The translations under genes and the position numbers were made by a program. A stretch of 64,000 nt of DNA from Acidimicrobiia bacterium (GTDB taxonomy: Bacteria > Actinomycetota > Acidimicrobiia > Acidimicrobiales > Aldehydirespiratoraceae): positions 8,232-72,231 of the forward strand of contig JAHQYN010000004.1 of the NCBI GenBank assembly GCA_024421085.1, in the 5' to 3' direction. The notes beneath the pieces were generated by a model. That model was given only the letters and a program-made list of their open reading frames with translations. It made no database searches and had not been told where the DNA came from. Shown piece after piece: positions 12,665 through 49,904 of the stretch. Every line of letters starts with the position of its first letter. Position 1 is the first letter of the stretch.

Positions 12665-12765
12665 CCTGCCAGGACTGCACCCGCCCTCGGCGGACAGTTT
12701 CAGATCGTCTCTACTGAATGTACACCGATCGGCCAGTGAGTTGCGTCGGCACCTGTGTCTACCGC

Positions 12766-13160
12766 CGCTCCCGTTCGCTGCGCTCCCCCTTCACTCCTGT
12801 TCGCTGCGCTTCCCCTCCGCTCCTGTTCGCTGCACTCACGGGCCGCTCCTGTTCGCTGCACTCACGGGCCGCTCAGACCACGGGTCCACCCCAGGGCCAC
12901 GAGCAGGCCGCTCAGGCCACGGGTCCGCTCGGGACCACGCGCAGGCCGCTCAGGCCACTCAGGCCACGGGTCCGCTCGGGACCAGGCGCAGGCCGCTCAG
13001 GCCACGGGTCCGCTCGGGACCAGGCGCAGGCCGCTCAGGCCACGGGCAGGCCACCTCAGGGCCACGAGCAGGCCGCTCAGGCCACGGGTCCGCTCGGGAC
13101 CACGCGCAGGCCGCTCAGGCCACGGGCAGGCCACCTCAGGCCACGGGTCCGCTCGGACGC
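12766..13160. repeat. Compound GC-rich minisatellite of about 400 bp (about 28-bp units, then about 38-bp units of gcaggccgctcaggccacgggtccgctcgggaccaggc) between purC and purE
   Basis: The units are contiguous with no unique spacers. The array fills nearly the whole 510-nt purC-purE spacer. Confidence 0.85.
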
Positions 13161-19096: not shown

Positions 19097-19175
19097 GGGC
19101 GGGCCTTGCCGCGGGCGGGTCTTGCTGCGGGCTGGTCTTGCTGCGGGCGGAGTGCGGGTGGGCTTGTGGTGGGCG
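19097..19175. repeat. Short tandem 16-bp units (gggcgggtcttgctgc, more than 3 copies) in the DUF35-thiolase spacer
   Basis: Seen directly at 19097, 19113 and 19129, followed by degenerate copies. Confidence 0.7.
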
Positions 19176-19199
19176 GGTTTCAGCCAGTGTCGGCGGGAT

Positions 19200-27212: not shown

Positions 27213-28199
27213 TCAGGCGGCGCAGCGAGCCAGGGTGGCCGACAGCTCTTGGGGAAGGGCGGACTCCAGTTCGAGGCGCTCGCCGGTAACCGGGTGACGC
27301 AGGCTGAGCGCACAGGCGTGAAGGAACGGTCGAGTCATTTCGATTCCCGGTCTGGCACCGTCGTAGGCCCGGTCGCCGACGACGGGATGGCCGATGGCCC
27401 GCAGATGCACCCGGATCTGGTGGGTCCGCCCCGTCTCGAGGCGGCACGACAGCAGCGTCGTGTCGCGCGGCTGGCTGAAACGGTCGAGGACCTCGTAGCG
27501 AGTGGACGCCCGGCGCCCCCGGTCAGTCACCGACATCCGCGTCGGATGCCTCAGTGATCGCCCGACCGGCGCATCGATCGTCCCTTGGTCGGCCTCGAGG
27601 TGACCCCAGACGAGCGCCTGGTAGACCCGTTCGGGCTCGCGGGCCGACAGTTGTTGGACGAGCCCCCGGTATGCCTTTGCGCTGCGGGCTGCGACGAGCA
27701 GGCCCGACGTCGTCCGATCGAGCCGATGCACGATACCCGGCCTGTGCGCTTCACCGACAGAGGCCATCTCCGGGTAGCGGGACACCAGGCCGTTGACCAG
27801 AGTCCGGTCGGGGTGGCCCGCGCCGGGGTGGACGACGAGGCCGACCGGCTTGTCCACAACAACAATGTCGGGGTCTTCGTATACCACCGCGAACTCCACC
27901 TCCCCGTCGGGGATGGGCCGCGGATCCCGCGGCGCCGGGCGCACAGCCCTGATCGTGCTGCCGATGACGACACGAAGCGAGCCCGACGCCGCGACCACCC
28001 CATCAACGGCGACCGCCCCCTCATCGATCATCCGTGCGGCTGTGGATCGGCTCACCTCGGCCATCAACGCGACTACCCGGTCGAGGCGTTCATCGGCCAG
28101 CGCCGCCGGTATCTCCTCTGAGACGACGCGTTGATCCGGCAAGGCGGTCCACCCGCTCCGTTCAGCGCAGCCCGAGGCTGCCGGCCTTGTATTCGACAC
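27213..28199 (-). CDS. rluD: RluA-family 23S rRNA pseudouridine synthase
   Basis: S4-like N-terminus (RLDRVVALMAEVSRSTAARMIDEGAV) and catalytic HRLDRTTSGLL. The start is uncertain; the gene overlaps the upstream gene by 38 nt. Confidence 0.85.
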   Translation of the reverse strand: MSNTRPAASGCAERSGWTALPDQRVVSEEIPAALADERLDRVVALMAEVSRSTAARMIDEGAVAVDGVVAASGSLRVVIGSTIRAVRPAPRDPRPIPDGEVEFAVVYEDPDIVVVDKPVGLVVHPGAGHPDRTLVNGLVSRYPEMASVGEAHRPGIVHRLDRTTSGLLVAARSAKAYRGLVQQLSAREPERVYQALVWGHLEADQGTIDAPVGRSLRHPTRMSVTDRGRRASTRYEVLDRFSQPRDTTLLSCRLETGRTHQIRVHLRAIGHPVVGDRAYDGARPGIEMTRPFLHACALSLRHPVTGERLELESALPQELSATLARCAA

Positions 28200-29802
28200 G
28201 TTCCGTGGCCCAGGGGATCGCCCGGAGACGCTCCTGTGGAATTCGCAGCCCGGAGACTATGCATATGCCGTAGGTGCCGGCTGCAATCCGGTCCAGGGCG
28301 GCATTGATCTGTTCGACTGCGCCTCTGGCCTGAGCCGACAGCGCGAGGTCGCGCTCGCGCTCCACGGCGAGCGTGTCGCCCTCGCCGCTCTCTTCGTCGA
28401 ACTGGACATCGCCCGGTTCGCGCCCCTCAATCAGCGCCTCGGCCTCGGCCCTATAGACCTCTTCAGAGTGGAGGTATTTGGCCCGTTCCGCGAGCAGCCG
28501 TTTCTTCATCTCCTCGTTGAACCTCTCGCTGAACGGCGGCGCAGTCCTCTTCTTCGCTCGCTTCTTCGCCGCAGCCTTCTTGACCGGCGCCTTCTTGACC
28601 CGGGCCTTCTTGGCCGCAGCCTTCTTAGTCGCGGCCTCCTTGACCGCTTGCTCCTGGGCCGGCGTCTTCTTGGCTGGCGTCTTCTTGGCTGGTGTCTTCT
28701 TGGCTAGCGTCTTCTTGGCTGGCGTCTTCTTGGCTGGGGCCTTCTTGGCTGGGGCCTTCTTGACCGCGGCCTCCTTGACCGCAGCCTTCTTGGCTGGAGT
28801 CTTCTTGGCCGGGGCCTTCTTGACAGACTGCTTCTTCACTGGAGTCTTCGTGACCGCAGCCTTCTTAGCTGGCGTCTTCTTGGCCGGGGCCTTCTTGACC
28901 GCAGCCTTCTTGGCTGGCGTCTTCTTGGCCGGGGCCTTCTTGACAGACTGCTTCTTCACTGGAGTCTTCGTGACCGCAGCCTTCTCCTTAGTCGCGGCCT
29001 CCTTGACCGCAGCCTTCTTGGCTGATGTCTTCTTGGCAGACTGCTTCTTGACCGCAGCCTTCTTGACCGGGGCCTCCTTAGTCGCGGCCTTCTTGGCAGA
29101 CCGCTTGTTGACCGCAGCCTTCTTGACCGGGGCCTCCTTAGTCGCGGCCTTCTTGGCAGACTGCTTCTTGACCGCAGCCTTCTTGACCGGGGCCTCCTTG
29201 GCCGCGGCCTTCTTGGCAGACTGCTTCTTGACCGCAGCCTTCTTGACCGGGGCCTCCTTGGCCGCGGCCTTCTTGGCTGATGTCTTCTTGGCAGACTGCT
29301 TCTTGGCAGACTGCTTCTTGGCTGGGGCCTTCTTAGTCGCGGCCTCCTTGGCCGGAGCCTCCTTAGTCGCGGCCTCCTTGGCCGCGGCCTTCTTGACGGG
29401 GGCCTCCTTAGTCGCGGCCTCTTTGGCTGGGGCCTTCTTGACAGACTGCTTCTTCACTGGCGTCTTCTTGACGGCTTGTTTCTTGACCGCAACCTTCTTG
29501 ACGGGGGCCTCCTTAGTCGCGGCCTTCTTGGCCGCTTGCTTCTTGACGGGGGCCTCCTTAGTCGCGGCCTTCTTGGCCGGAGCCTTCTTGACCGCTTGTT
29601 TCTTGACCGCAGCCTTCTTGACCGGCGCCTCCTTGACGGCGGCCTTCTTGGCCGCTTGCTTCTCGGCTGGGGCCTTCTTGGCTGGAGTCTTCTTGGCTGG
29701 AGTCTTCTTGGCCGCGGCGTCGGGCGCGGTGCGTTCCCGCTTGGAGGCGGGGCTAGCCGAATCTTCGGTCTTGGCGCCTGCGCTACGCTTTTTCTTGACC
29801 AT
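28162..29802 (-). CDS. Chimeric protein: Lys/Ala-rich histone-H1-like repeat domain of about 420 aa fused to a C-terminal DksA/TraR-like domain
   Basis: The N-terminus consists of reiterated [18 protein letters not shown] motifs (DNA repeats about 28540-29750, including four copies of about 60 bp at about 29041-29280). The C-terminus has a coiled coil plus [39 protein letters not shown], which is DksA/TraR-like but lacks the four Zn-finger cysteines. Confidence 0.75.
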
Positions 29803-29884
29803 GCTGCCGGTCCTTCACACCTGTGACCGACGCATCACCGCCCCAGTCGGGTCCGCAGTGTACCCGATGCCAGCATCGACTAGT

Positions 29885-35511: not shown

Positions 35512-36794
35512 CGGCTGCCGTTTCCGTCGGCACAGCCGCCCGAATCGGCGGGCGCTGCCCCTTCCCCGCAGGTGTTGCCAGCCCCGCAGGCGTCTTTGGC
35601 CCCGCAGGCGTTACCAGCCCCGCGGGCGTCTCCCGCCCCGTAGGCGTTACCAGCCCCGCAGGCGTTACCAGCCCCGCGGGCGTCTCCGGCCCCGCAGGCG
35701 TCTTTGGCCCCGCAGGCGTTACCAGCCCCGCGGGCGTCTCCGGCCCCGCAGGCGTTACCAGCCCCGCGGGCATCTTTGGCCCCGCAGGCGTTACCAGCCG
35801 CGCGGGGGTCCCAGTCGTCGGACGCGTCGGGTTCGTCGAATCCGAGCAGTTGCGTCTCGAACTGCAGCTCGATCCCATGGCGCTCCAGCACCCGCCGTCG
35901 CAACTCCGCCATCAACGACAAGATGTCGGCGGCGCGCCCGTCGTCGTCGGCCTGAATGAAGTTGGCGTGCTTGCGTGACACCTCCGCGGTGCCGATCCGC
36001 AGGCCCTTGGCGCCGACAGTCTCGATGAGCCGCCCGGCACTGTCACCGTCGGGATTGCTGAACACCGACCCGGAGTTGTGTCCGCCGGGCTGATTGGCCC
36101 GTCTCCAGGCGACTATCTCGGCGAGCCGGGCGCTGCCGGCGGCCGCGGCTGCGCGGCTCAACTCGAAGCGGGCACCGAGCACCAGTTCGGCCGTGTCCAC
36201 CGACGAGGTGCGGTAGCCGAACTCCAGGCCGTCGTTGCTGCGGCTGAAGAGAGCACCGTTGCGCAGGTCGATCAGCTCGGCGTCGATCAGGGAGTCCCTG
36301 ATCTCGGCGCCGTGCCCGCCCGCGTTCATGCGGACCGCGCCGCCGACCGACCCTGGGACTCCGACAGCCCACTCGAAACCGCTGAGTCCGGCGCTGACCG
36401 AGGCGCGCGCGACCACGGGTAGCTTGGCAGACCCGCCCGCGGCGACCGTCGTCTCGGCGATGCTGACCTTGCTGAAACCCGGGCCCAGCATCACCGCCAG
36501 CCCGGCGAATCCGTCGTCGCTCACCAGCAGATTGGAGCCCCGCCCTATCACCGCAACCGGCGTGCGGGCGCACTCCTGGCTGCTGCAGAGAGCCTCGCAC
36601 AGCGCGGCGACTTCGCCGCGGTCGTTGACCACCACGAGCGCCGAGGCGGAACCGCCCACTCGATAGCTGGTGAGCGGGCCGAGGGCCGCGTCGACGCGGG
36701 TCTTCGCTGACAACGGACCCGAAAGCAGCGCCTGGATCACGGCCTCGTCACCCCGAGTGCCGCGCCGAGCACCGCGGCCGCCCGGACCGGTCAT
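35508..36794 (-). CDS. murB: UDP-N-acetylenolpyruvoylglucosamine reductase with a C-terminal hexapeptide-repeat tail of about 100 aa
   Basis: FAD-binding core: TSYRVGGSA, GRGSNLLV, GGHNSGSVFSNP. The tail consists of 13 hexapeptides (AGNACG/AKDARG/AGDARG..). Confidence 0.85.
   Translation of the reverse strand: MTGPGGRGARRGTRGDEAVIQALLSGPLSAKTRVDAALGPLTSYRVGGSASALVVVNDRGEVAALCEALCSSQECARTPVAVIGRGSNLLVSDDGFAGLAVMLGPGFSKVSIAETTVAAGGSAKLPVVARASVSAGLSGFEWAVGVPGSVGGAVRMNAGGHGAEIRDSLIDAELIDLRNGALFSRSNDGLEFGYRTSSVDTAELVLGARFELSRAAAAAGSARLAEIVAWRRANQPGGHNSGSVFSNPDGDSAGRLIETVGAKGLRIGTAEVSRKHANFIQADDDGRAADILSLMAELRRRVLERHGIELQFETQLLGFDEPDASDDWDPRAAGNACGAKDARGAGNACGAGDARGAGNACGAKDACGAGDARGAGNACGAGNAYGAGDARGAGNACGAKDACGAGNTCGEGAAPADSGGCADGNGSR
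35565..35798. repeat. 13 tandem 18-bp units (gccccgcaggcgttacca type) inside the murB 3' end
   Basis: Counted from the hexapeptide repeats in the translated tail; in frame with murB. Confidence 0.85.
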
Positions 36795-38173
36795 GGTGCC
36801 TCGGCGGTCCGCAACCGCTCGAGCACGGCATCGGGAACGCTGGTCAGGTCGCCTGCGCCGAGCGTCAGGCAGAGGTCTCCGGCTCTGAGACCGCCGGCGA
36901 GTCGCGCCACGACGTCGCTGAGACGGGCGACCTGGCTGATCCGGGTCTCGGGGTGCGCGTCGAGCACCGCGTCCACGATGAGCTTGGCGGTGACCCCCGG
37001 GCGCGGCGTCTCACCCGCAGCGTAGACATCGGTGACCACAACCTCGTCGGCTCGCTCGAAGGCGTCCGCGAAGTCGTGGGCCAATGCCGCGACCCGGCTG
37101 TAGCGGTGCGGCTGGAACACCGCCACGATCCGCTTCCAGCCTCCGTCGCCCGCCGCGGCCAGTGCGGCCTCGACCTCGGCTGGAAGATGCGCGTAGTCGT
37201 CGACGAAGGTGACTCCCGCGGCTTCGCCGCGAAACTCGTAGCGTCGTGCCACGCCGCCGAAGCGCGACAGCGCTCTGCTTGCGGCATCGGCCGGTGCACC
37301 GATCTCCAGGGCGGTCGCTACCGCGGCAGCGGCGTTGCGGGCATTGTGCAGTCCCGGCGTCGGCAGAGCCACGCTGACCAGGCGCTGTTGGCGCTGCTTC
37401 AACGAGAACGAGACCGAGGCACGGCCCCTGACGAGGTCGACGATCTGATAGTCGGCTGCGGGGTCGATCCCATAGGTCACCGCGTCGGCGAGCCGCGCCA
37501 GCCCGGCGGCGCCCGGGTCGTCCGCGCACATGACGCAGTTCGAGGCCCCGTCGGCGAACTCGGCGAAAGCGGCGTAGAGCGCGGCGGGGTCTCCGCCATA
37601 GGTCTCGAGATGGTCGGATTCGGCGTTGGTGACCACCGCAACTTCGGCGTCCAAAGAGAGGAAGGTGCGATCGCTCTCGTCGGCTTCGACAACGATCCAC
37701 TCGCCGTCGCCCCAGACGGCGCCCGAGCCGATCTCATTGACGTCTCCGCCGATGATGAAAGACGGCTGAAGTCCCGCTTCGGTCAGCACCATCGAGAGCA
37801 TCGAGGCGGTTGTGGTCTTGCCGTGGGTGCCGGCAACGGCGATGGTTCGCCTCTGTGCGGCGACGGCAGGCAGCAGGTCCGCTCGGCGGAGCACTTCGAT
37901 CCCTGATTCGCGGGCCGCCCGCAACTCCGGGTTGTGTTCTGGAATCGCGCTGCTGATCGCCACCAGTTCGGCCTCGCCGAGGTTCGCCGGTTCATGGCCG
38001 ATCGTCACCTCGACGCCCTCGGCACGGAGACGTTCAACGATCGGTCCTTCCTTGAGGTCGCTTCCCGACACCTCATGGCCCATGGCTGCCAGTACCGAGG
38101 CGATCGCGCCCATGCCGGCGCCGCCAGCACCGATGAGGTGGATCCGGCGGGCTCGGCCGAGATCGACGGTCAC
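36791..38173 (-). CDS. murC: UDP-N-acetylmuramate-L-alanine ligase
   Basis: IHLIGAGGAGMGAIA and GTHGKTTT motifs. The GTG at 38173 (VTVDLGRARR) sits in the first GTGA repeat unit. The ORF-track ATG at 38281 lies inside the 59-bp repeat array and is less likely. Confidence 0.88.
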   Translation of the reverse strand: MTVDLGRARRIHLIGAGGAGMGAIASVLAAMGHEVSGSDLKEGPIVERLRAEGVEVTIGHEPANLGEAELVAISSAIPEHNPELRAARESGIEVLRRADLLPAVAAQRRTIAVAGTHGKTTTASMLSMVLTEAGLQPSFIIGGDVNEIGSGAVWGDGEWIVVEADESDRTFLSLDAEVAVVTNAESDHLETYGGDPAALYAAFAEFADGASNCVMCADDPGAAGLARLADAVTYGIDPAADYQIVDLVRGRASVSFSLKQRQQRLVSVALPTPGLHNARNAAAAVATALEIGAPADAASRALSRFGGVARRYEFRGEAAGVTFVDDYAHLPAEVEAALAAAGDGGWKRIVAVFQPHRYSRVAALAHDFADAFERADEVVVTDVYAAGETPRPGVTAKLIVDAVLDAHPETRISQVARLSDVVARLAGGLRAGDLCLTLGAGDLTSVPDAVLERLRTAEAP

Positions 38174-38405
38174 GAGCCGCCTCCGCGTAGCAGCGGCCAC
38201 TTGGCGTGGCGCTCGAGCACAACGACGCTCACGAGCCGCCTCCGCGTAGCAGCGGCCGCTTGGCGTGGCGCTCGAGCACAACGACGCTCACGAGCCGCCT
38301 CCGCGTAGCAGCGGCCGCTTGGCGTGGCGCTCTAGCAGATCGACGCTCACGAGCCGCCTCCGCGTAGCAGCGGCCGCTTGGCGTGGCGCTCTAGCAGATC
38401 GACGA
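38170..38405. repeat. Four tandem 59-bp units duplicating the murG 3' end and the GTGA stop/start junction
   Basis: tcacgagccgcctccgcgtagcagcggcc.cttggcgtggcgctc.agca...cgacgc starts at 38170, 38229, 38288 and 38347. Confidence 0.95.
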
Positions 38406-39618
38406 CTGCCTGCGCTGCGTCGGGTCGTCCGTGGGTCCTGGCAGCAGCCGACATGGCGGCTAGGCGCCGCTCGTCGCCGAGCAGTTCGTCAACCTCGCGA
38501 TAGAGCCGCTCACCGTTGAGCTCGCTGTCGGGCACGACTCTCGCCGCGTTCGATTCGCCGAGAATGCGCGCGTTGGCGCTCTGGTGGTCAGCGGTCGCTG
38601 CGGGGAACGGCACGAGAATTGCCGGCACCCCGGCGACAGCCAGTTCCGCCACCGTGCTCGCGCCCGCACGGCAGACCAGGAGATCGCAGGCCGCATATAC
38701 CGCCGCCATGTCCTGTTCGAACTCGACTAGCTGCAGGACCAGCCCGCCGTCGAGTCGGTAGGTGAGGGGCGATCCCGAGTCGGTGAGTCGGTAGGTGAGA
38801 GGCGATCCGGAGTCGTCGAGTCGGTAGGTGAGGGGAGATCCGGAGTCGCTTTGGGCAGGCCCGTTGAAGCGCTCGTTGAAGCGCTCGACGAACTCGGCGT
38901 AGTCGCGTCTTCCGGTGACCTGGCGTATGGTCAGGTCAGCGCGCTGCTGGCCCTGCTCGAGAGCATCGAACAGCGCCTCGTTGATCCGCCGAGCGCCCAA
39001 CGAGCCCCCGAGGACGCACAGGAGCTTGCGCCGGGGGTCTACGCCGAGCCGTCGACAAGCCTCGTCACGACCCTCGCCGCGGTCGACTCCGATGACCGCG
39101 GAGCGCACCGGGTTGCCGGTCTGCACTGCGCGGGGGAGGTTCACCCCAGCGAACGGGACCGCAGCGGCCTTGGCGAACCTCGCCCCCATCCGGTTGGCAG
39201 CACTCGGCACGGCATTCTGTTCGACCACCACCAGCGGCACCCGCCAGACGACCGCCGCCACCACGCCGGGGACCGAGGCGAAACCACCGAGTCCGACCAC
39301 CACTGCCGGACGCCACCGGGCCATCCGGACCACCGCCTCGATGATCGCCGCGCAGAGCCCGACCACCGCGGCGATGTTGCTGAGCGTGAACCTGCGGGCG
39401 ATTCCCCGGCCCCGCAGAGCCGTCAAGGTGAACCCGGCTTGGGGGACGACGGTGGTCTCGAGTCCTCGGCGACTGCCCAGGCAGTGCACCGCCTCGAAGC
39501 GGTCGCAACGCGCCACGATCTGCTCGGCGACAGCGAGTCCGGCAACGACGTGGCCGCCCGTCCCTCCCCCGGCAACGACAGCCCAGACACGCCCGGAACT
39601 CTTCGACGGTCCTTTCAT
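38347..39618 (-). CDS. murG: Lipid II glycosyltransferase MurG (UDP-GlcNAc transferase) with an internal 3 x 11-aa repeat insertion
   Basis: VVAGGGTGGHVVAGLAVA and C-terminal GASTVAELAVAGVPAILVP. The ATG at 39618 overlaps the ftsW stop (ATGA); the 162-codon upstream part of the ORF-track call overlaps ftsW and is rejected. Confidence 0.9.
   Translation of the reverse strand: MKGPSKSSGRVWAVVAGGGTGGHVVAGLAVAEQIVARCDRFEAVHCLGSRRGLETTVVPQAGFTLTALRGRGIARRFTLSNIAAVVGLCAAIIEAVVRMARWRPAVVVGLGGFASVPGVVAAVVWRVPLVVVEQNAVPSAANRMGARFAKAAAVPFAGVNLPRAVQTGNPVRSAVIGVDRGEGRDEACRRLGVDPRRKLLCVLGGSLGARRINEALFDALEQGQQRADLTIRQVTGRRDYAEFVERFNERFNGPAQSDSGSPLTYRLDDSGSPLTYRLTDSGSPLTYRLDGGLVLQLVEFEQDMAAVYAACDLLVCRAGASTVAELAVAGVPAILVPFPAATADHQSANARILGESNAARVVPDSELNGERLYREVDELLGDERRLAAMSAAARTHGRPDAAQAVVDLLERHAKRPLLRGGGS
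38752..38850. repeat. Three tandem 33-bp units inside murG (DSGSPLTYRLD x 3)
   Basis: Units at 38752, 38785 and 38818; in frame. Confidence 0.9.
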
Positions 39619-40856
39619 CGATCGCTCCTTCGGGTCTGGCGGGCCACGTTGAGCAGGATCCCGGCGGTCACCATCATCATTACCAGCGAAGTCCCGCCGT
39701 GCGACACCAGCGGGAGCGTCACGCCCACGGTCGGGAGCAGCCCCATCACCGAGCCCAGGTTGAGGGACGCCTGAGCGAAGATCCAGGTCGTGATCCCGGC
39801 CGCGAGCAGCATGCCCAAGCGGTCGGGCGCCCTCACCGCCACAACGGAGCCGACCACGCCGATGCCGAGGTACAGCAGGATCACCGCGCCAGCCCCGAGT
39901 ATCCCCAGTTCTTCGGCGATGACCGCGAAGATGAAGTCGCTGTGCGCGAAGGGAACGAAACCCCATTTGGCCAGTCCGTCGCCGATCCCGGTGCCGCGGA
40001 TTCCGCCGACCGTGATGGCGTGGAGCGACTGCAGCAGCTGAAAGCTGTCGCCGCCGGGGTCGCTCCACGGGTCGAAAACGCTCAACAGACGTTGGCGGCG
40101 CCATGCAGTGCTCCAGACCACGAGTCCCGCCAACGACACCCCGACGAACGCTGTGGCTGACAACAGCCGTATCGGCGTCCCCGCCCAGAACAGCATCGTC
40201 AGCGCGATCACCCCGAGGATCAGGGTGTTGCCGAAATGAGGCTGCAGCATGATCAGCACGGCGAACAGCGCTGTGCAGGCCAGGACCGGAACCAGCGTGC
40301 TCCGGGCGTTGCGGACATCACGGCGCGGCCGCGACAGGAAGTCCGCCGCGAAGAAGAGCAACGCGAGTTTCGCAACCTCGGACGGCTGGAACGAGATGAC
40401 ACCGATGTCGAGCCAACGAGTTGCGTTGTTCTGGTTGATACCCAAGCCCGGGACCGCCAGCAGAGCGAGCGCCATAAGTGAACCGACCACCGCAGGCACC
40501 GCCAGGGTGCGCCAATGGTGGTAGTCGATGCGGATCGCCACGAACATCAGGACCAGTCCGGCTGCAGCCGACCGCGCCTGGCGGTTGAACTCGCTCCAGG
40601 CGTTTCCACTGTGCTTGATGCTGACGACCGCCGACGCCGAGAGCACCATCACCAGACCCAGCACGACCAGCGTGCTGACCATCACCAGCAATGAGATGAA
40701 CAACAGGGAGCGCTGACCCGCTGCCACGCTTGGTCGGGCCGCGGCCTTTGCCCGTGATGGGCGCGCCTGCGATGGGCGCGACTGCGAAGGGCGCGACTGC
40801 GAAGCGCGCGACCGCGAAGCGCGAGCTTGTGGAGTGACGGGCCCGGCGGCTCTCAT
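39615..40856 (-). CDS. ftsW: SEDS peptidoglycan polymerase FtsW
   Basis: Polytopic membrane protein with SDFIFAVIAEELG and LPLVSHGGTS motifs. Its ATG overlaps the murD stop (ATGA). The N-terminal tail contains a 5 x 15-bp repeat at 40756-40830 (ASRSR/ASQSR/PSQSR/PSQAR/PSRAK). Confidence 0.9.
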   Translation of the reverse strand: MRAAGPVTPQARASRSRASQSRPSQSRPSQARPSRAKAAARPSVAAGQRSLLFISLLVMVSTLVVLGLVMVLSASAVVSIKHSGNAWSEFNRQARSAAAGLVLMFVAIRIDYHHWRTLAVPAVVGSLMALALLAVPGLGINQNNATRWLDIGVISFQPSEVAKLALLFFAADFLSRPRRDVRNARSTLVPVLACTALFAVLIMLQPHFGNTLILGVIALTMLFWAGTPIRLLSATAFVGVSLAGLVVWSTAWRRQRLLSVFDPWSDPGGDSFQLLQSLHAITVGGIRGTGIGDGLAKWGFVPFAHSDFIFAVIAEELGILGAGAVILLYLGIGVVGSVVAVRAPDRLGMLLAAGITTWIFAQASLNLGSVMGLLPTVGVTLPLVSHGGTSLVMMMVTAGILLNVARQTRRSDR

Positions 40857-42193: not shown

Positions 42194-43224
42194 GCTGTGA
42201 ACCCCTGAGCGATCGCATCACGGTAGAAGATCCCCAGGCCGACCGCGGTGCACAGCCCCGACATGATCCAGAGGCGCACTATCACGGTCGTCTCAGGCCA
42301 GCCGAGCAGCTCGAAGTGGTGATGGATGGGCGCCATGAGCAAAAGGCGCCGCCCGCCGAATCGATGGAACACGATTATCTGCGCGATCACCGAGACCGTC
42401 TCCACAACGAACAGCCCTCCGATGATCGGCAGCAGCAGGTGTGTGCCGGTCGACAGCGCCAGAGCGGCGAGTCCGCTGCCGATAGCCAGAGCGCCCGCAT
42501 CACCCATGAAGATCTGCGCGGGCGCGGCATTCCACCACAGGAAGCCGACGATGCCCCCGACCATCGCTGCGGAGATGACCGCCAGGTCGAGCGCCGCGGG
42601 GTTGTTGTAGTCTTGCAGGTGGCGGAACTGCCAGAACGAGATCAGGGTGAAGGCGGCGAAGCAGATCACGCTGGCGCCGGCGGCCAGACCGTCGAGGCCG
42701 TCGGTGAGGTTGACGCTGTTGGTCGTCGCCACGATCAGCACGACGGCCCATACCATCCAGCCGACGCGCCCCAGATCCCATCCGGGGTTGTCGAAACGGG
42801 TGAACGCGACTGTCGTGGAGACGTTGGTGAACTGTGTCATCAAGAACGCGAACCCGACCGCAACAACCAACAGACCGATGGTCTTCGCCCGTTTGTTGAG
42901 CCCGCGGTTGCGGGCTGCAACGACCTTGATCCAGTCGTCGAGCAGGCCGACCGCGCCTCCGCCGACGATGCACATGAGCACGAAGATGCCACGGATCGTG
43001 TAGATCCCCCCGAAGAAGTCTGAGATCACGTAGCCGAGCACAGCCCCCGAGACGATGGCGACCCCGCCCATCGTCGGGGTGCCCGCCTTGGTGCGGTGGC
43101 CCTCGGGACCGTCGCTGCGAATCGGCTGGCCGATCTTGTGCTCGGTCAACCACTTCAGCAGCAGCTTCGTGCCGAACAGGGAGACCATCATTGAGACCGC
43201 GGCCGCGATGAGCAGGCGATTCAC
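42190..43224 (-). CDS. mraY: Phospho-N-acetylmuramoyl-pentapeptide transferase
   Basis: KAGTPTMGG, NSVNLTDGLDGLA and APIHHHFE motifs. Confidence 0.95.
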   Translation of the reverse strand: MNRLLIAAAVSMMVSLFGTKLLLKWLTEHKIGQPIRSDGPEGHRTKAGTPTMGGVAIVSGAVLGYVISDFFGGIYTIRGIFVLMCIVGGGAVGLLDDWIKVVAARNRGLNKRAKTIGLLVVAVGFAFLMTQFTNVSTTVAFTRFDNPGWDLGRVGWMVWAVVLIVATTNSVNLTDGLDGLAAGASVICFAAFTLISFWQFRHLQDYNNPAALDLAVISAAMVGGIVGFLWWNAAPAQIFMGDAGALAIGSGLAALALSTGTHLLLPIIGGLFVVETVSVIAQIIVFHRFGGRRLLLMAPIHHHFELLGWPETTVIVRLWIMSGLCTAVGLGIFYRDAIAQGFTA

Positions 43225-44627
43225 GACCGGACACCTGCTCGCAACCGCAGTTCCTGGCGCGCCACGACTCGATCATCGAAGGAGAACACCTCAGACCCGA
43301 TCGCCTGGGTCGCCTCATGGCCCTTGCCCGCGAGCAGCACGAGGTCTCCTGGTGCGGCCATGTCGAAGGCTGCACCGATGGCGCGGCGGCGGTCGACTTC
43401 AACAAGGTCCGGAGGGGCTGCCATACCCGAGACGATGGCAGAAATGATGTCTTGTGGGTGTTCATCGCGGGGATTGTCGCTGGTCACGACAACCCGGTCG
43501 GCAAGGTCGCGGGCAACCTCGCCCATCAGCGGACGCTTGGCCCGGTCGCGGTTCCCACCCGCGCCGAACACCACGATCAGCGATCTCTCGGTCACGGCCC
43601 TGGCCGCCTCCAGAGCGCTGGCCAGCGCCTCGTGAGTGTGCGCATAGTCAACGATCACCGAGAACTGCTGGCCCTGATCGATTGCCTCGAAACGGCCCGG
43701 CACACCGGGAACCGTTGCCAGCGCCTCGGCAACGGCGTTCGGGGGGTGACCCAGCGCCACTGCCATCTCCGCCGCCATCACCGCGTTGACAACATTGAAT
43801 CCTCCCACCAGCTGAGTCTCCACTGTCCGGCCGCGCCAGCGGAACGTGCTAGCGCGGGAGTCGAATCGCACCGCGTCGACTAGGTGGCGACCGACCGGCA
43901 CGACCGGAATCCTGCTCTCGGCGGCCAGACGCGACCCGAACTCACAGTCCACATTCACGACGGCCAGATCGCTCAATTCAGGACTGAACAGCCTCGCCTT
44001 GGCAGCGAAGTAGTGCTCGACCGTGCCGTGGTAGTCGAGATGGTCGTTGCCGAGGTTGGTGAACGCCGCGACCGCGAACCGGCAGCCGTCGACCCGGTGC
44101 TGAGCCAAGCCGTGCGAGGAGACCTCCATGGCCGCGGTGTCCACTCCCCGACCGACGGCAGCAGCGAGGACCCGCTGCAGCTCCGGTGCTTCGGGGGTGG
44201 TCCGCTCGCCGGTCAGGGTTCCGATCTCAAGCACCGAAGCGCCGAGCGCAGCCAGCAGCCCACAGAGGATGCGGACCGTGGTCGTCTTCCCGTCGGTGCC
44301 GGTGACGCCGACGAGCCGCAGCGATCGGCTCGGGTCGCCATGCACCGCCGAGGCCACCGCACCGAGCGACTCGCGGACCGAGGCGACCTTCAGTTCCGGC
44401 ACCCCGACCCCCAAGCGTCGTTGCACCAGAAGGGCTGCCGCGCCTGCATCCACCGCGGCGACGGCATGGTCGTGCCCGTCGTGGCAGTCGCCGCGGATCG
44501 CCGCGAACAGCGAACCGGGCACCATCTCCCGGGAGTCGTGACGGACATCGCGGATCTCAATATCGGGCCATCGCGGGTCCGGCTCGATTCCCACGACGCT
44601 GGCCAACTCAGACAGTCGCCTGCTCAT
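43221..44627 (-). CDS. murE: UDP-MurNAc-L-Ala-D-Glu : meso-DAP (or L-Lys) ligase
   Basis: DSREMVPGSLFAAIRG..DGHD, VGVTGTDGKTTT and C-terminal GKGHE. Single-domain length (468 aa), so it is not a MurE-MurF fusion. Confidence 0.88.
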   Translation of the reverse strand: MSRRLSELASVVGIEPDPRWPDIEIRDVRHDSREMVPGSLFAAIRGDCHDGHDHAVAAVDAGAAALLVQRRLGVGVPELKVASVRESLGAVASAVHGDPSRSLRLVGVTGTDGKTTTVRILCGLLAALGASVLEIGTLTGERTTPEAPELQRVLAAAVGRGVDTAAMEVSSHGLAQHRVDGCRFAVAAFTNLGNDHLDYHGTVEHYFAAKARLFSPELSDLAVVNVDCEFGSRLAAESRIPVVPVGRHLVDAVRFDSRASTFRWRGRTVETQLVGGFNVVNAVMAAEMAVALGHPPNAVAEALATVPGVPGRFEAIDQGQQFSVIVDYAHTHEALASALEAARAVTERSLIVVFGAGGNRDRAKRPLMGEVARDLADRVVVTSDNPRDEHPQDIISAIVSGMAAPPDLVEVDRRRAIGAAFDMAAPGDLVLLAGKGHEATQAIGSEVFSFDDRVVARQELRLRAGVRS

Positions 44628-46576
44628 TGCCGCGTCTCCGAGCCGCTCTGCGCGGCCATTGCAACCGGCACGGCGGCCGGGTCTGCCCGGACGCGCTGTG
44701 CCACGACGGTCTGGTCACCGAAGGGTGCGAGATGCAGTTGGCGGACCGCATAGCCCGCAATTTCAGCAAAGATCGGGGCGGCCACCGAACCGCCTCCGTA
44801 GCTCTCGCCCTGCGGATCATCGACCACGACGAGGGCACTCAACACGGGACCCTGGTCGTTTTCCACTATGCCGACGAAACTGGCCGTGTAGTGCCGTTCC
44901 TTGACTTCTAGGTCATCGGGGTCGGCACCGTATTCGAGTTCTTCATTGCAGATGTAGCCGGCGACGTTGCCGCACGGCTGCCATGCGGTCCCCGTCTTGC
45001 CCGCCACAAGATAGCCGTGCAGAGCCGCGCGTTTGCCGGTGCCTGAACTGACCACGCCGCGCAACATGTCCATGAGCGACTGTGCGTTCGCAGCTGACAC
45101 GACCCTGACCGGCTGCGCCGGGGAGCTTTCGGGATCGTCGAACCCGCCCTCGAGCAGCAGCTTCGGCTCGATCCGGACCCCGCCGTTGGCCAGGGTGTTG
45201 TACGCCTGAATCAATTGCAGCGGCGTGACCGCGATGCTCTGCCCGATGGCGGCGTTCGACAAGATCAGGCTGTGCGAGTCGAGATCCTCGACGATGCCGG
45301 GGCTCTCGCCCGGGAATGCCAAGCCGGTCTGGCGCCCGAACCCGAAGTTCTCGAAGGTCCGCTGGAGCGCCTCTGCTCCGAGGGCCTGGGCGAGCAGCAC
45401 CGTCCCGGTGTTCGAGGAGTGCATGAGAATCGTCGAGGGGAGGTTCTCAACAGTCGTGCCCCAGGGGACTCGCTTGTCGAGATAGACGAGGCTGTCGACA
45501 CCGGATTCGCGCGCCACCGCGACCGATGCCGGGACCTCCACCGGATCATCGACTCCCCACGCGCCATGGTCGAACACGCCCGCGAGCGTTACCCCTTTCA
45601 TGGTCGATCCCGGTTCGTAGGCCCACACCGCCGCCAGGTTGGCGTCGCTGCATTCGACCTCCCCGGTGTCTGCGTCTCGCAGGACGCTGGCCATGGCGTA
45701 GATCTCCCCGGTCAGGGGATCCGTGACGATGGCGATGGCCGTGGCTGCCTGCGTCTCTGTCAGCGCGGCAGCGAGGATCTGTTCTGTTCGATACTGGATG
45801 TTGCGGTCGATGCTCAGTCTCAGGTCCTCTCCGGACTCTTGGGGCCGGGTCACCTGGTAACCGTCGGGGATCTGCACGGCGCGGTCGATCTGCGTCTGGC
45901 GCAGGGCGCGGCCCGGGCTTCCCCGGAGCTGCTCGTCGAACTGCTTCTCGAGGCCCGATATGCCGACCTGCTCGGTGTCTACGATACCGACCACTGACAG
46001 CGCCGAGCACGGACCGTTGGGGTGCTCGCGGTACTGCTCGTCGATGGTCCAGACGTCTGGAAGTCCGAGGGCCTCGACGGCTTCGCCGACTTCGGGGGCT
46101 ACATGTCGCTCAAGGTAGACGAAGTTCTTGTCGCGGTGCAGATCCCGCGTCATCGTTTCGGGGTCGGTGGTCAGCACCGTTGCGAGTTCGGCGACGATGT
46201 CATCGATGTCGGCGGTCGCCGAGCTGGCGATGCCGCGGGGGTCGGCGACGGCCGACGGCCGCGGTGCGGAGAATGCGAGCAGCCGACCGTGGCGGTCCAC
46301 GATGTCGCCGCGCGATGCTTCGATCCGCTCCTCGCGCAGGTAGCTCCCCACGTTGTTGAGCAGGTCGTAGTCGGGGCTCAGCTGCAGGTCCACCAGCTTC
46401 CACAGGAAGCCTCCGGTCGCGAGCACCAGCGCAAAAAGGATCACCCCGAAGCGCCAAGGGCTGACCTCGACGCGACCACCGCGCCGCGGGGCCCGACCCT
46501 CGACGCGACCACCGCGCCGCGGGGCCCGGTTGCGGCCTCGTTGTCCGGCTCGGTCCGAATGCGGCGTCCGGCTCAT
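44624..46576 (-). CDS. ftsI: Class B penicillin-binding protein (FtsI-type transpeptidase)
   Basis: N-terminal TM segment WRFGVILFALVLATGGFLW, then PBP dimerisation and transpeptidase domains (SSNTG and KTGTA). The ATG at 46576 overlaps the ftsL stop; the 208-codon upstream part of the ORF-track call is rejected. A 2 x 33-bp repeat lies at 46465-46530. Confidence 0.9.
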   Translation of the reverse strand: MSRTPHSDRAGQRGRNRAPRRGGRVEGRAPRRGGRVEVSPWRFGVILFALVLATGGFLWKLVDLQLSPDYDLLNNVGSYLREERIEASRGDIVDRHGRLLAFSAPRPSAVADPRGIASSATADIDDIVAELATVLTTDPETMTRDLHRDKNFVYLERHVAPEVGEAVEALGLPDVWTIDEQYREHPNGPCSALSVVGIVDTEQVGISGLEKQFDEQLRGSPGRALRQTQIDRAVQIPDGYQVTRPQESGEDLRLSIDRNIQYRTEQILAAALTETQAATAIAIVTDPLTGEIYAMASVLRDADTGEVECSDANLAAVWAYEPGSTMKGVTLAGVFDHGAWGVDDPVEVPASVAVARESGVDSLVYLDKRVPWGTTVENLPSTILMHSSNTGTVLLAQALGAEALQRTFENFGFGRQTGLAFPGESPGIVEDLDSHSLILSNAAIGQSIAVTPLQLIQAYNTLANGGVRIEPKLLLEGGFDDPESSPAQPVRVVSAANAQSLMDMLRGVVSSGTGKRAALHGYLVAGKTGTAWQPCGNVAGYICNEELEYGADPDDLEVKERHYTASFVGIVENDQGPVLSALVVVDDPQGESYGGGSVAAPIFAEIAGYAVRQLHLAPFGDQTVVAQRVRADPAAVPVAMAAQSGSETRQ

Positions 46577-47022
46577 TGCCGCGCGCCCGGCGGAGTGAAG
46601 GGATCGGCCGTTCTCGGGGGCTCCAGCAGGCCGGGGGTGAGCGGCACCAGCAGCGCCACTTCCGCGGCCGGCACCAGCCCGGCGTCGCCGACCTTGTCGG
46701 AGAGTCCTTCGGGGGAGTCGTGCCAGGCCCGTTCGGCCAGGGCCCTGATCCGCGTCTGCCGCAATTCGATCATCTCCCGCTCTATCCCGTCGATCTCCGC
46801 CTGCACCTGGATGTCGCCGGCGAACAGGCCGGCGACCACGAAGGCGATCCCCACCGCGATCGAGCAGACGACCGTCATTGCGGGCCAGATGCGGTCGTCG
46901 GTTCGGGCCGCCCTGTTGCTGGGCGCGACCTTCAAGTTCGCCCGCCGCGGGGCGGCTTCGGGCGAACTTCGGGGCGCGGGCCGGGCTGCTGCGGCGTTTC
47001 TTCGGGAGGCGCTCGTCGCCAT
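46573..47022 (-). CDS. ftsL: FtsL-like bitopic division protein
   Basis: Basic N-terminus, a single TM segment (MTVVCSIAVGIAFVVAGLFAG), then a short coiled coil, in the canonical slot between rsmH and ftsI. The call rests on position and topology only. Confidence 0.6.
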   Translation of the reverse strand: MATSASRRNAAAARPAPRSSPEAAPRRANLKVAPSNRAARTDDRIWPAMTVVCSIAVGIAFVVAGLFAGDIQVQAEIDGIEREMIELRQTRIRALAERAWHDSPEGLSDKVGDAGLVPAAEVALLVPLTPGLLEPPRTADPFTPPGARQ

Positions 47023-47993
47023 TACCGTTCCTCTCGGAGTCGCTCGACCGCACGCAGGCGTGCGGCTCTTGCACGAGGGTTCCGGTCTGTCTCCTGCGCG
47101 CCGGGCCTGCGGGCGCCGCGCCACAGCAGGCGGACGCTCGCCGGTCGGGGCTGCGCCGGCAGGCCGGGTCGAGGAGGGGGAACTTGGCCCGAGGCCTCAT
47201 TGAAGCAGCGCTTGACGATCCGGTCCTCGCCGGAGTGGTAGGCCAGCACCGCGCAGCGCCCGCGCGGCGCCAGCAGCGCTAGCGCCTGTTTGATCGCGTC
47301 CTCCAGGATCCTGAGCTCTTCGTTGACCTCGACGCGGATCGCCTGGAAGGTCCGGCGTGCGGGATGGCCCCTGCTCCGACGGACCGCTGCGGGAACGGCA
47401 CCGCGGACGACCTCCGCGAGCTCGACCGTCGAGGTGATCGGTCTGGCCGCGACTATCGCCCGCGCGATTCGGTGGGCATCGGGCTCGTCGCCATGCTGCC
47501 GCAGCAGCGCCGCCAGCGCCCCCTGGTCGTAGCTGTTGACCACATCGGCGCCGGTGATCCCGCGGCTGCGGTCCATCCGCATGTCGAGCGGGCCGCAGTG
47601 CCGGTAGCTGAAACCGCGCTCGGCGGTGTCGAGCTGCATCGAGCTGACCCCCAGGTCGAATAGGCATCCCGAGATTCTCTGGACGTCGAGCTTTCGCAGC
47701 GTCGCCTCCATCTCGTCGAAGCGGCAGTGGACCAGCGCAGCCCGTGGTCGCTGAGGGGCCAGCCGGGCGCCCGCGGCGCTCAGCGCGTCGGGGTCGCGGT
47801 CGATCCCGACCAGCGACAGACCGCGGTTGGCGTTCAGCAGCGCCTCGGCGTGTCCGCCCGCGCCGAGTGTGGCATCGACCACGACGCCATCAGGCACTCG
47901 GGACAGCACCGCCACTACTTCGTCGAGCATTGCCGGTTGATGCCCAGAGCTGCCCACGAGGTCTTCGATGCCCAGGCGGTCTTCGGTGCTCAC
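47022..47993 (-). CDS. rsmH: 16S rRNA m4C1402 methyltransferase
   Basis: HQPAMLDEVV, DATLGAGGHA, FDLGVSSMQLD and NPRARAARLRA motifs. The GTG at 47993 overlaps the mraZ stop (GTGA). Confidence 0.9.
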   Translation of the reverse strand: MSTEDRLGIEDLVGSSGHQPAMLDEVVAVLSRVPDGVVVDATLGAGGHAEALLNANRGLSLVGIDRDPDALSAAGARLAPQRPRAALVHCRFDEMEATLRKLDVQRISGCLFDLGVSSMQLDTAERGFSYRHCGPLDMRMDRSRGITGADVVNSYDQGALAALLRQHGDEPDAHRIARAIVAARPITSTVELAEVVRGAVPAAVRRSRGHPARRTFQAIRVEVNEELRILEDAIKQALALLAPRGRCAVLAYHSGEDRIVKRCFNEASGQVPPPRPGLPAQPRPASVRLLWRGARRPGAQETDRNPRARAARLRAVERLREER

Positions 47994-48735: not shown

Positions 48736-49437
48736 TCAGCGCAGGTGCGGCAGCAACAAATCGAGCACCGCCAGGTCGCCGATCTCATAGACCCTCGACC
48801 GCAAGCGCCGTGCCAAGGTGCCGACCGTTGGGCCGGCGCTCGGGTTCACCGCGACGAGACGAGCCGTCTGCTCGGCTGAGAATCGACGGTGCATGATCGT
48901 CTGGAAGCGGATCCAGTCACGGGTTCGCCGCTGGCTCAGTCCCACGACCTTCTTGGCTCCGCTGAAGACCTCCCCGGGTCCCCGGCCCACGAAACAGACC
49001 TTGCGGGAGAGGGCATCGCTGCTTGCGGGCCCGCGATGCACCGACAGGTCGGCGATGCCCGCATCGCGCAGCGCCGAAACGAACGTCTCACCGAGCCAGT
49101 CCGCCGCGACGACTACGTCGTCGCGCCACAGGGCGTCGCCCGCGGGCAGCCAGAAGTCGATCCAGACGTGCTCCGCGGGAACCAACAGGACGGCACCTCC
49201 CCCGCTGCGCCGCCGGACGACCTCCACACCCGTGGATTCGGCGCTGCCAAGGTCGATGTCGCTGTCGGGCTGGGAACTGCCGATGACGACCGCCGCAGAG
49301 ACTGCCTCGAGGATCCGCAGCGTGCGCCGGGCCTGCGCCGGGGGTGTGAACTCGTGGAGCGTCGCGGCGCGTCCGCGCAGGTGCTCGGCACCCCAGGTCA
49401 CGCTGAGCGGCGCTGAGCGGTCAGATACTGGGACCAA
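48736..49437 (-). CDS. Lipoate/biotin protein ligase (BPL_LplA_LipB) family protein
   Basis: VVRRRSGGGAVLLVP and GAKKVVGLSQRR (conserved Lys) motifs. The start is uncertain: a TTG at 49437 is chosen to limit overlap with the upstream HNH gene, while the ORF-track start is 49566. Confidence 0.6.
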   Translation of the reverse strand: MVPVSDRSAPLSVTWGAEHLRGRAATLHEFTPPAQARRTLRILEAVSAAVVIGSSQPDSDIDLGSAESTGVEVVRRRSGGGAVLLVPAEHVWIDFWLPAGDALWRDDVVVAADWLGETFVSALRDAGIADLSVHRGPASSDALSRKVCFVGRGPGEVFSGAKKVVGLSQRRTRDWIRFQTIMHRRFSAEQTARLVAVNPSAGPTVGTLARRLRSRVYEIGDLAVLDLLLPHLR

Positions 49438-49904
49438 GCGACCGGCATCGACCCCGCGGCAGCCTCGATCCACAAACCTGCAGGAGGCGGACCCGGCGGG
49501 TTCCGAAGCCGCATCGCGGTCTCGCCGAGCAGGCGGTCGCGCTTGTTGGCATTGCAGACCCGGCAAGCCGCGACGACGTTCTCCCAGACGTGGCGGCCGC
49601 CCCGGCTGCGCGGCACGACGTGATCGACAGTCTCGGCGCGCGCACCGCAGTACTGGCAGCCGTGGCCGTCGCGGGCGAAGATGCCGCGCCGGTCGGGTGA
49701 GCGGTGGCGCGCATAGGGAACCTTCACGAAACGCGAGAGTCTCACCACTGAGGGCTCGGCCAAGGCCAAGCGCTCAGAGCGCACCAGACGACCCGAGCTG
49801 TGCAGCATCTCGACCTTGTCGGCCAGTATCAAACACACCGCCCGGCGAACCGGAACGACCGCGAGCGGCTCGAACGTCGCGTTCAGAACGAGGACTCCGG
49901 CCAT
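49398..49904 (-). CDS. HNH endonuclease (McrA-like, small actinobacterial type)
   Basis: CQYCGARAETVDHVVPRSRGGRHVWENVVAACRVCNANK. Confidence 0.85.
   Translation of the reverse strand: MAGVLVLNATFEPLAVVPVRRAVCLILADKVEMLHSSGRLVRSERLALAEPSVVRLSRFVKVPYARHRSPDRRGIFARDGHGCQYCGARAETVDHVVPRSRGGRHVWENVVAACRVCNANKRDRLLGETAMRLRNPPGPPPAGLWIEAAAGSMPVAWSQYLTAQRRSA

What the first reader, a model, noticed from the sequence alone, without database searches (positions are those of the whole stretch)
38170..38405. Amplified GTGA stop/start junction between murG and murC forms a relay of three 20-codon mini-ORFs
Seen directly: four 59-bp units start at 38170, 38229, 38288 and 38347. On the minus strand each unit carries GTGA (a GTG start overlapping a TGA stop) plus the last roughly 19 codons of murG. 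Because 59 = 3n-1, the GTG of one unit is in frame with the TGA of the next unit. This gives three consecutive mini-ORFs: VSVDLLERHAKRPLLRGGGS, VSVVVLERHAKRPLLRGGGS and VSVVVLERHAKWPLLRGGGS. Each mini-ORF stop overlaps the next GTG, and the last one overlaps the murC GTG at 38173 (VTVDLGRARRIHLIGAGG). Every other junction of this 11-gene dcw operon is a 1-4-nt overlap, so the array looks like a duplication of the coupling junction itself that still preserves a termination-reinitiation chain. The logic resembles mycobacterial MIRU elements (intergenic tandem repeats whose small ORFs overlap the flanking stop and start codons). Here the unit is clearly derived from the murG 3' end, and it sits inside an essential operon. 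Copy number could tune the MurC:MurG ratio.
Basis: partly seen in the sequence, partly recalled or inferred. Interest (0 to 1): 0.7.

Follow-up and report, generated by a model that had tools for sequence, protein, structure and literature searches.

The report
Tandemly duplicated murG–murC gene junction
In an uncultured marine actinobacterium, the 59-base piece of DNA that joins two essential cell-wall genes has been copied three extra times, and each copy automatically recreates the stop/start signal, so the chain of tiny genes looks like a harmless by-product of replication slippage rather than a purpose-built regulator.

Summary
A 59-bp unit occurs four times head to tail (TRF 38164-38404, 97% identity). 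On the minus strand each unit carries GGAGG-N6-GTGA. Three 20-codon mini-ORFs chain murG's stop to murC's GTG. It is not an assembly artefact: the same four-unit array is in five assembly records. One record has three units, and two contigs break inside the array.

The closest other lineage found (95-97% nt identity) and all more distant Acidimicrobiales relatives checked (L001-L007, L082) have one unit and an ATGA junction. That lineage already carries a 9-nt direct repeat, CGTCGATCT (V-D-L in the MurG tail and in the MurC N-terminus), exactly 59 nt apart and in the same codon phase. Slippage between these repeats must fuse murC's start in frame to murG's tail and stop. The relay is therefore a geometric necessity, not evidence of selection. 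A neutrality check gives P = 0.38-0.59.

The window is also unusually rich in tandem arrays, including in-frame arrays in ftsW, murG and murB. The best reading is a lineage-specific, MIRU-like but locally derived intercistronic VNTR that is tolerated because it regenerates the coupling junction. Tuning of the MurC:MurG ratio is untested, and copy number is nearly fixed at four. Interest is moderate to low.

The parts
38347..39618 (-). murG coding sequence (423 aa), ending with the native TGA at 38349-38347
   Evidence: Translation. Exact-protein look-up shows it called as a 423-aa gene with PF03033/PF04101.
38164..38404 (-). 59-bp tandem array, 4.1 copies. The first copy is the native murG tail and the other three are extra.
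   Evidence: TRF, the repeat finder family D1, pattern matches.
38396..38404 (-). Upstream copy of the 9-nt direct repeat CGTCGATCT (codons V-D-L of the MurG tail); proposed slippage end-point
   Evidence: Sequence. The same 9-mer pair, 59 nt apart, is present in the single-unit lineage L081/L083.
38160..38168 (-). Downstream copy of CGTCGATCT (codons V-D-L of the MurC N-terminus), in the same codon phase
   Evidence: Sequence.
38288..38350 (-). Mini-ORF 1, VSVDLLERHAKRPLLRGGGS*. Its GTG overlaps the murG TGA and its TGA overlaps the next GTG.
38229..38291 (-). Mini-ORF 2, VSVVVLERHAKRPLLRGGGS*
38170..38232 (-). Mini-ORF 3, VSVVVLERHAKWPLLRGGGS*. Its TGA overlaps the murC GTG.
38357..38361 (-). 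GGAGG Shine-Dalgarno, 6 nt before the GTG of mini-ORF 1. Identical copies lie at 38298-38302, 38239-38243 and 38180-38184 (the last serves murC).
   Evidence: Sequence; checked programmatically.
36791..38173 (-). murC coding sequence (460 aa), GTG start
   Evidence: Translation. Homologues are about 460 aa (most exactly 460) with the same N-terminus. Exact protein found in public assemblies.

Best explanation
This is a lineage-specific variable-number tandem repeat. It arose by replication slippage or unequal recombination between two pre-existing 9-nt direct repeats, CGTCGATCT. One encodes V-D-L in the MurG C-terminal tail and the other encodes V-D-L at residues 3-5 of MurC. They lie 59 nt apart.

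The two repeats occupy the same codon phase in their own genes, and the genes overlap as NTGA. Each duplication therefore joins murC's SD, start codon and first two codons in frame to the last 18 codons and stop of murG. Every extra unit is thus a complete SD-GTG-20-codon-TGA cistron whose stop overlaps the next start. For any copy number, murG keeps its native end and murC keeps its native initiation region.

Inferred: ribosomes finishing murG are passed along the mini-ORFs, or load at each GGAGG. murC therefore still sees a terminating ribosome 1 nt from its start, which is why a 177-nt insertion into an essential, tightly coupled operon is tolerated.

The array is best seen as a near-neutral product of a tandem-duplication-prone genome, not as an evolved regulator.
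For: Shown:
- The array and the mini-ORFs are real.
- The identical four-unit allele is in five assembly records: the window, GCA_026713045.1, JGI 3300027391, JGI 3300027328 and ENA ERZ27241788. ENA ERZ27241794 has three units. Two contigs end inside the array.
- Every relative checked has one unit with ATGA. These include the two 97%-identical-MurC contigs L081/L083 and the 3.8-Mb contig L082 (ctg17314_30x_c).
- No non-3n array lies at this junction in any of the 83 relatives' loci.
- In L081/L083, CGTCGATCT spaced 59 nt is among the longest direct repeats within 300 nt of the junction.
- Unit variants show at least three successive duplications plus point changes, so the array is not brand new. 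The variants are A and A' with CTAGAG, B and B' with GTTGTG, and B' with TGG; all internal heads read GTGAGC.
- The window has 2.3 arrays (TRF score >=80) per 10 kb, and 4 in its 7.4-kb dcw segment. The homologous dcw loci of 83 relatives have 0.36 per 10 kb.
- The murG 33-bp array is likewise flanked by a short direct repeat in the single-copy lineage L083.
- The initiation region is predicted to be strongly base-paired in every context (15-20 kcal/mol to open). This is consistent with dependence on upstream translation.

From the literature:
- Termination-reinitiation coupling collapses once the spacer reaches about 20 nt (PMC10666635).
- Short ORFs coupled at -4 can deliver ribosomes, as proposed for MIRUs (PMC12548453).
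Against: - Nothing here shows that the mini-ORFs are translated or that murC depends on coupling. The opening-energy figures are equilibrium predictions with large error.
- The three-unit allele comes from a short-read k141 assembly, so collapse cannot be fully excluded. That contig does differ by SNPs and by another array.
- Whether the assembly records come from independent biological samples was not verified.
- The start codon is GTG here but ATG in all relatives, and this is unexplained. It could hint at adjustment of murC expression.
Confidence: 0.75

Rival explanations
1. Inert spacer. The extra units are untranslated or irrelevant intergenic DNA. Coupling to murG is lost, and murC is made only by independent initiation at its own GGAGG-GTG.
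For: murC keeps its own strong SD. The array shows no selection signal. Other non-3n arrays in the window lie in plain intergenic DNA with stops in all frames.
Against: Each mini-ORF has the same SD, spacing and start codon as murC itself and directly follows a translated gene, so not translating them would need a special reason. The predicted opening cost of the murC initiation region is high (19.6 kcal/mol), which argues that help from upstream ribosomes matters.
Confidence: 0.2
2. Adaptive rheostat. Copy number of the junction unit is selected to set the MurC:MurG ratio.
For: Copy number differs between lineages: 1, 3 or 4 units. The ATG-to-GTG change accompanies the array. Each relay step could attenuate or add ribosome flux.
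Against: The relay is an automatic outcome of the slippage geometry. Five of six complete records share one allele. P = 0.38-0.59 that the observed substitutions spare the relay by chance. The same genome carries many other arrays with no plausible tuning role.
Confidence: 0.07
3. Assembly artefact, or a mobile MIRU/MITE-like insertion.
For: Short-read assemblers can mis-handle 59-bp repeats, and two contigs break in the array. The MIRU architecture is similar.
Against: The same ordered set of distinguishable unit variants was recovered in five records made by different pipelines. The unit is murG's own 3' end, as seen in single copy in relatives. There are no other copies in the 64-kb window and none in the species-representative genomes, although this species seems absent from that collection. 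No terminal inverted repeats and no significant fold were found.
Confidence: 0.03

Closest known systems
Mycobacterial interspersed repetitive units (MIRU-VNTR; Supply et al. 1997, as summarised in PMC12548453 and PMC3184786)
   Same: Both are 40-100-bp units in tandem, located between cistrons of an operon. Both have variable copy number. In both, an ORF inside the unit overlaps the downstream start at -4 and the upstream stop, so the insertion has little effect on expression.
   Different: MIRUs are a dispersed family of about 40-50 loci that appear to insert as mobile elements. Here the unit is the local murG tail plus the murC start. It is found only at this locus in the window, arose from flanking microhomology, and occurs in an Acidimicrobiales MAG rather than a mycobacterium.
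Ordinary slipped-strand or microhomology-mediated tandem duplication (bacterial VNTRs)
   Same: Copies are head to tail. The unduplicated ancestor shows a short direct repeat at both end-points. Copies are gained and lost between strains.
   Different: The unit length is not a multiple of 3, and the unit spans a stop/start overlap inside an essential operon. This would normally be expected to be disruptive, but the in-phase end-points make it self-repairing.
Termination-reinitiation coupling at NTGA overlaps, and synthetic 'bicistronic design' leader ORFs
   Same: Each junction has the classic 4-nt overlap with an upstream SD. The last mini-ORF sits in front of murC just as an engineered leader cistron that delivers ribosomes would.
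   Different: This is natural, repeated three times in series, and derived from the upstream gene's own tail. Function has not been measured.

Membership tests
MIRU | Dispersed multi-locus family (tens of loci per genome) with a shared unit sequence | tested here: not met
   The unit core matches only the four tandem copies in the 64-kb window. There are no matches in the species-representative genomes. The whole genome of this organism was not available.
MIRU | Located between cistrons of a polycistronic operon | tested here: met
   The array lies between murG and murC in the dcw cluster.
MIRU | Unit ORF overlaps the upstream stop and the downstream start (-4) | tested here: met
   GTGA is present at all four junctions.
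MIRU | Inserted as a foreign or mobile sequence (filled versus empty sites with target duplications) | tested here: not met
   The 'empty' site in relatives already contains one full unit as native murG/murC sequence.
MIRU | Mycobacterial host and homology to MIRU consensus sequences | tested here: not met
   For host: the relatives are Acidimicrobiales / Ca. Aldehydirespiratoraceae MAGs. Similarity to the MIRU consensus was not compared.
Slippage-derived VNTR | Head-to-tail copies of high identity | tested here: met
   4.1 copies at 97% identity.
Slippage-derived VNTR | Short direct repeats at the unit boundaries in the unduplicated state | tested here: met
   CGTCGATCT occurs twice, 59 nt apart, in L081/L083.
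Slippage-derived VNTR | Copy-number polymorphism among close strains | tested here: met
   Four units in five records and three units in ERZ27241794. One unit in the 95-97% nt lineage L081/L083. Collapse in the short-read three-unit assembly is not fully excluded.
Termination-reinitiation coupled gene pair | Stop and start overlap by 4 nt or 1 nt, with an SD upstream | tested here: met
   GGAGG-N6-GTGA occurs four times.
Termination-reinitiation coupled gene pair | Downstream translation depends on upstream translation | not testable with these tools
   This needs reporter fusions or ribosome profiling. The only indirect hint is the high predicted opening energy of the initiation region.

The most novel reading that the evidence does not exclude
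NTGA gene junctions flanked by in-phase microhomology may be natural birthplaces of 'self-healing' intercistronic VNTRs. In a lineage with a burst of tandem duplication, the only non-3n arrays that survive inside essential operons would be those that regenerate the coupling junction. This would offer an origin model for MIRU-like elements. The resulting copy-number alleles might measurably shift the MurC:MurG ratio.
Probability: 0.12. Interest if true: 0.7.

Novelty: new variant of a known kind. Interest (0 to 1): 0.38.

Why it matters
The array is a clean natural example of how a frameshifting-length tandem duplication can land inside an essential, translationally coupled operon and persist. 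The duplicated piece carries its own stop, SD and start, so the operon's translation logic is rebuilt at every copy.

It provides a ready-made allelic series (1, 3 and 4 units) for testing how far termination-reinitiation can be relayed through serial mini-cistrons. It also suggests a local-duplication route to MIRU-like architectures.

It does not, on present evidence, reveal a new regulatory mechanism.

Tried and rejected
- **RNA element:** the array and the single-unit junction fold no better than shuffles (z = 0.58 and 0.27). There were no Rfam hits (best E about 1, miRNA noise).
- **Internal promoter or terminator:** none on the coding strand.
- **N-terminally extended MurC from TTG 38281:** rejected. 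Homologues are about 460 aa and start M(T/S)VDL, and gene callers chose GTG 38173.
- **Selection on the relay:** 82-90% of possible single substitutions are harmless. P = 0.38-0.59 for the 4-5 observed events, so there is no signal.
- **Recurrence of junction duplication in other lineages:** none in 83 relatives' loci.
- **Pattern scans for the unit or the novel joint:** 0 hits in genome contigs and 0 in metagenome contigs. JGI contigs that demonstrably contain the sequence were not found, so the metagenome negatives are uninformative. The genome-contig scans missed even the locus itself, so this species seems absent from that collection too.
- **Other non-3n arrays in the window (12762-13147, 19097-19176):** examined for a similar relay and none found. 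They lie in ordinary intergenic DNA with stops in all frames.
- **Literature search for junction-derived VNTRs in bacteria:** only mitochondrial-genome papers and general reviews came up.

Full report
**1. Is it there?**

Yes. Tandem Repeats Finder reports one array at 38164-38404 with period 59, 4.1 copies, 97% matches and no indels. A 45-nt core of the unit matches four times with at most 1 mismatch, at 38170, 38229, 38288 and 38347 on the minus strand. No match is expected in 100 shuffles.

Reading the minus strand:
- murG ends ...AVVDLLERHAKRPLLRGGGS with TGA at 38349-38347.
- The G before that TGA starts a GTG codon (38350).
- From there, three 20-codon ORFs follow, each ending on a TGA that overlaps the next GTG. 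They are VSVDLLERHAKRPLLRGGGS, VSVVVLERHAKRPLLRGGGS and VSVVVLERHAKWPLLRGGGS.
- The last TGA (38172-38170) overlaps the murC GTG at 38173.

Each unit also carries GGAGG six nucleotides before its GTG, so the whole murC initiation region is repeated.

Gene identities are secure. Pfam domains for MurG and MurC appear in the look-ups. Pfam also identifies the neighbours: rsmH, ftsI, one Mur ligase, mraY, murD, ftsW, murB, ftsQ and ftsZ. All junctions from rsmH to ftsQ are ATGA, GTGA or TAATG, except murG-murC.

**2. Is it real DNA or an assembly product?**

Exact-sequence look-ups of the window's MurC and MurG found several public contigs.
- The same four units, with the same order of distinguishable variants, occur in NCBI GCA_026713045.1 (JAPOPG010000132.1), JGI 3300027391, JGI 3300027328 and ENA ERZ27241788, besides the window.
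- ENA ERZ27241794 has three units; the second unit is missing. That contig also differs by five SNPs in 3.9 kb and by 90 nt in the murB array, so it is a different strain.
- Two short contigs (Logan SRR6214543 and JGI 3300002160) end inside the array, as expected for a real repeat in short-read graphs.

An artefact is therefore very unlikely. The three-unit allele comes from a short-read assembly and still needs long-read confirmation.

**3. What do relatives look like?**

The closest genomes are uncultured Acidimicrobiales labelled Candidatus Aldehydirespiratoraceae. The library's only paper naming this family describes a sponge-symbiotic lineage and a free-living sister lineage within it (PMC11706023).

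Every relative inspected has one unit and an ATGA junction. These include two contigs whose MurC is 97% identical (L081, L083), the 3.8-Mb contig L082, and L001-L007. None of the 83 relatives' loci has a non-3n tandem array at the junction. The array and the ATG-to-GTG change are thus specific to the window's population.

**4. How it arose**

In the single-unit lineage L081/L083, the sequence CGTCGATCT occurs twice, 59 nt apart. One copy is in the MurG tail (codons V-V-D-L) and the other is in MurC (codons T-V-D-L). It is among the longest direct repeats within 300 nt of the junction. These are exactly the array boundaries in the window (38404-38396 and 38168-38160). This is the classic substrate for slipped-strand duplication.

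The unit variants show that expansion was stepwise:
- All internal heads read GTGAGC, against GTGACC at murC. This is one substitution that was later copied.
- Units 1-2 share CTAGAG, where the ancestral sequence is CTCGAG.
- Units 3-4 share GTTGTG in place of GATCTG.
- Unit 4 alone has CGG->TGG.

At least three duplications and four to five point events followed the split from the single-unit lineage.

**5. Why the relay is automatic**

Both copies of the 9-mer sit in the same codon phase (xxC GTC GAT CTx) in their own gene, and the two genes are offset by one base through the NTGA overlap. The spacing therefore has to be 3n-1. A slippage joint has to place murC's GTG and second codon in frame with murG's ...VDLLERHAKRPLLRGGGS-TGA.

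That frame is open by definition, because it is murG's frame. It ends on murG's stop, which by definition overlaps the next GTG. Given these end-points, the probability of a relay is 1.

I also asked whether later substitutions avoided breaking it. Of 543 possible single changes in the three extra units, 82% leave the starts, stops, open frames and SDs intact, or 90% if the SDs are ignored. Four to five neutral events would spare the relay with P = 0.38-0.59. There is no evidence of selection for or against the relay.

**6. How it most likely works**

Shown: each extra unit is a full SD-GTG-ORF-TGA cistron. murG and murC are unaltered for any copy number.

Inferred: ribosomes terminating on murG reinitiate, or fresh ribosomes load on GGAGG, at each mini-ORF. 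murC is therefore still preceded by a terminating ribosome at -4.

Two considerations make the geometry relevant:
- Measured termination-reinitiation coupling collapses with spacers of about 20 nt (PMC10666635). A 173-nt untranslated gap would uncouple the genes.
- The murC initiation region is predicted to be tightly base-paired in both the four-unit and a one-unit context (19.6 versus 16.9 kcal/mol to open). This suggests that unwinding by upstream ribosomes helps. These energies are rough.

The array has no fold beyond chance, no Rfam match, and no promoter or terminator on the coding strand.

**7. Context: a repeat-prone genome**

The window holds 15 separate arrays with TRF score >=80, or 2.3 per 10 kb. 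Four of them lie in the 7.4 kb around murC. The homologous dcw regions of 83 relatives have 0.36 per 10 kb.

In-frame arrays sit in three dcw genes:
- ftsW: 15 bp x 4.3, against 8.8 copies in L081/L083.
- murG: 33 bp x 3, against 1 copy in L083, again flanked there by a short direct repeat.
- murB: 36 bp x 6.9. The MurB protein length is 428, 398 or 392 aa in different assemblies.

The 59-bp array is one product of a general mutational tendency. This favours a near-neutral reading over a dedicated regulatory device.

**8. Comparison with known systems**

The architecture matches what is described for mycobacterial MIRUs: 40-100-bp intercistronic tandem units whose ORF couples at -4 to the downstream gene, so that insertion has minimal impact (PMC12548453; PMC3184786).

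It fails the MIRU membership tests. It is not dispersed, it is not an insertion of foreign sequence, and the host is not a mycobacterium. It is a slippage-derived VNTR whose unit happens to be a coupling junction. It also resembles the synthetic 'bicistronic design' leader-ORF principle mentioned in the same review.

**9. Verdict**

The preserved relay is a geometric by-product, and the rheostat idea is unsupported, since five of six complete records share one allele.

It is a new variant of a known kind and of moderate to low interest. It could serve as a natural allelic series for testing serial termination-reinitiation.

**Caveats**
- No expression data exist for this organism.
- Independence of the biological samples behind the assembly records was not checked.
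- The collection-wide pattern scans were uninformative. The metagenome scans missed JGI contigs known to contain the sequence, and this species seems absent from genome contigs.

Noticed in passing
window 38751-38848 (minus strand, inside murG): An in-frame 33-bp x 3 repeat adds two extra copies of an 11-residue unit (consensus DSGSPLTYRLD) to MurG relative to L083, which has one copy. The single copy there is flanked by a short direct repeat, CGACTC. A 12-bp x 2 repeat (ERFNERFN) lies just upstream at 38862-38887.
   Followed up: partly
window 35564-35810 (murB) and 40759-40823 (ftsW N-terminus): Both are in-frame arrays (36 bp x 6.9 and 15 bp x 4.3) in essential division and cell-wall genes. 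The murB array length differs between assemblies of the same population (MurB 428, 398 or 392 aa). The ftsW array has 8.8 copies in L081/L083.
   Followed up: partly
whole window: There are 15 distinct tandem arrays with TRF score >=80 in 64 kb. This is about 6-fold the density in the homologous dcw loci of 83 relatives (about 15-fold for the dcw segment itself). It suggests a lineage-wide tendency to microhomology-mediated tandem duplication; the cause is unknown.
   Followed up: partly
window 38205-38224 and 38264-38283 (units 3 and 4): The paired substitutions GATCTG->GTTGTG make the sequence around CTCGAG a better palindrome (12/20 to 16/20 self-complementary). The repeat finder reports the palindrome only in these two units. 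This looks like a quasi-palindrome template-switch mutation.
   Followed up: partly
window 12762-13147: A complex ~390-bp block of overlapping tandem repeats (periods 26, 38 and 80) fills the gap between two co-directional minus-strand ORFs. Stops occur in all frames, so it is not a relay. Its nature is unknown.
   Followed up: partly
window 28561-29718 (ORF 28162-29814, minus): A 15-bp unit repeated about 77 times encodes a very long lysine/alanine-rich (AKK/PAKK) N-terminal region of a 551-codon ORF. The ORF has a non-repetitive C-terminal domain.
   Followed up: no
window 3100-3129: A near-homopolymeric run of about 30 G (16 G, T, 8 G, A, 4 G) lies in what appears to be intergenic DNA.
   Followed up: no
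window 43221-47200 and 49398-49904: Only one Mur-ligase gene lies between ftsI and mraY, where many dcw clusters have both murE and murF. The ftsI ORF is open for 858 codons, with PBP domains starting only at residue 293. An HNH-endonuclease ORF sits just upstream of the cluster.
   Followed up: no
tool behaviour (versus 34, 35): Exact-pattern scans of metagenome contigs returned nothing for sequences that are present verbatim in JGI contigs fetched by the look-up of encoding contigs. Negative results from that collection should not be read as absence.
   Followed up: yes
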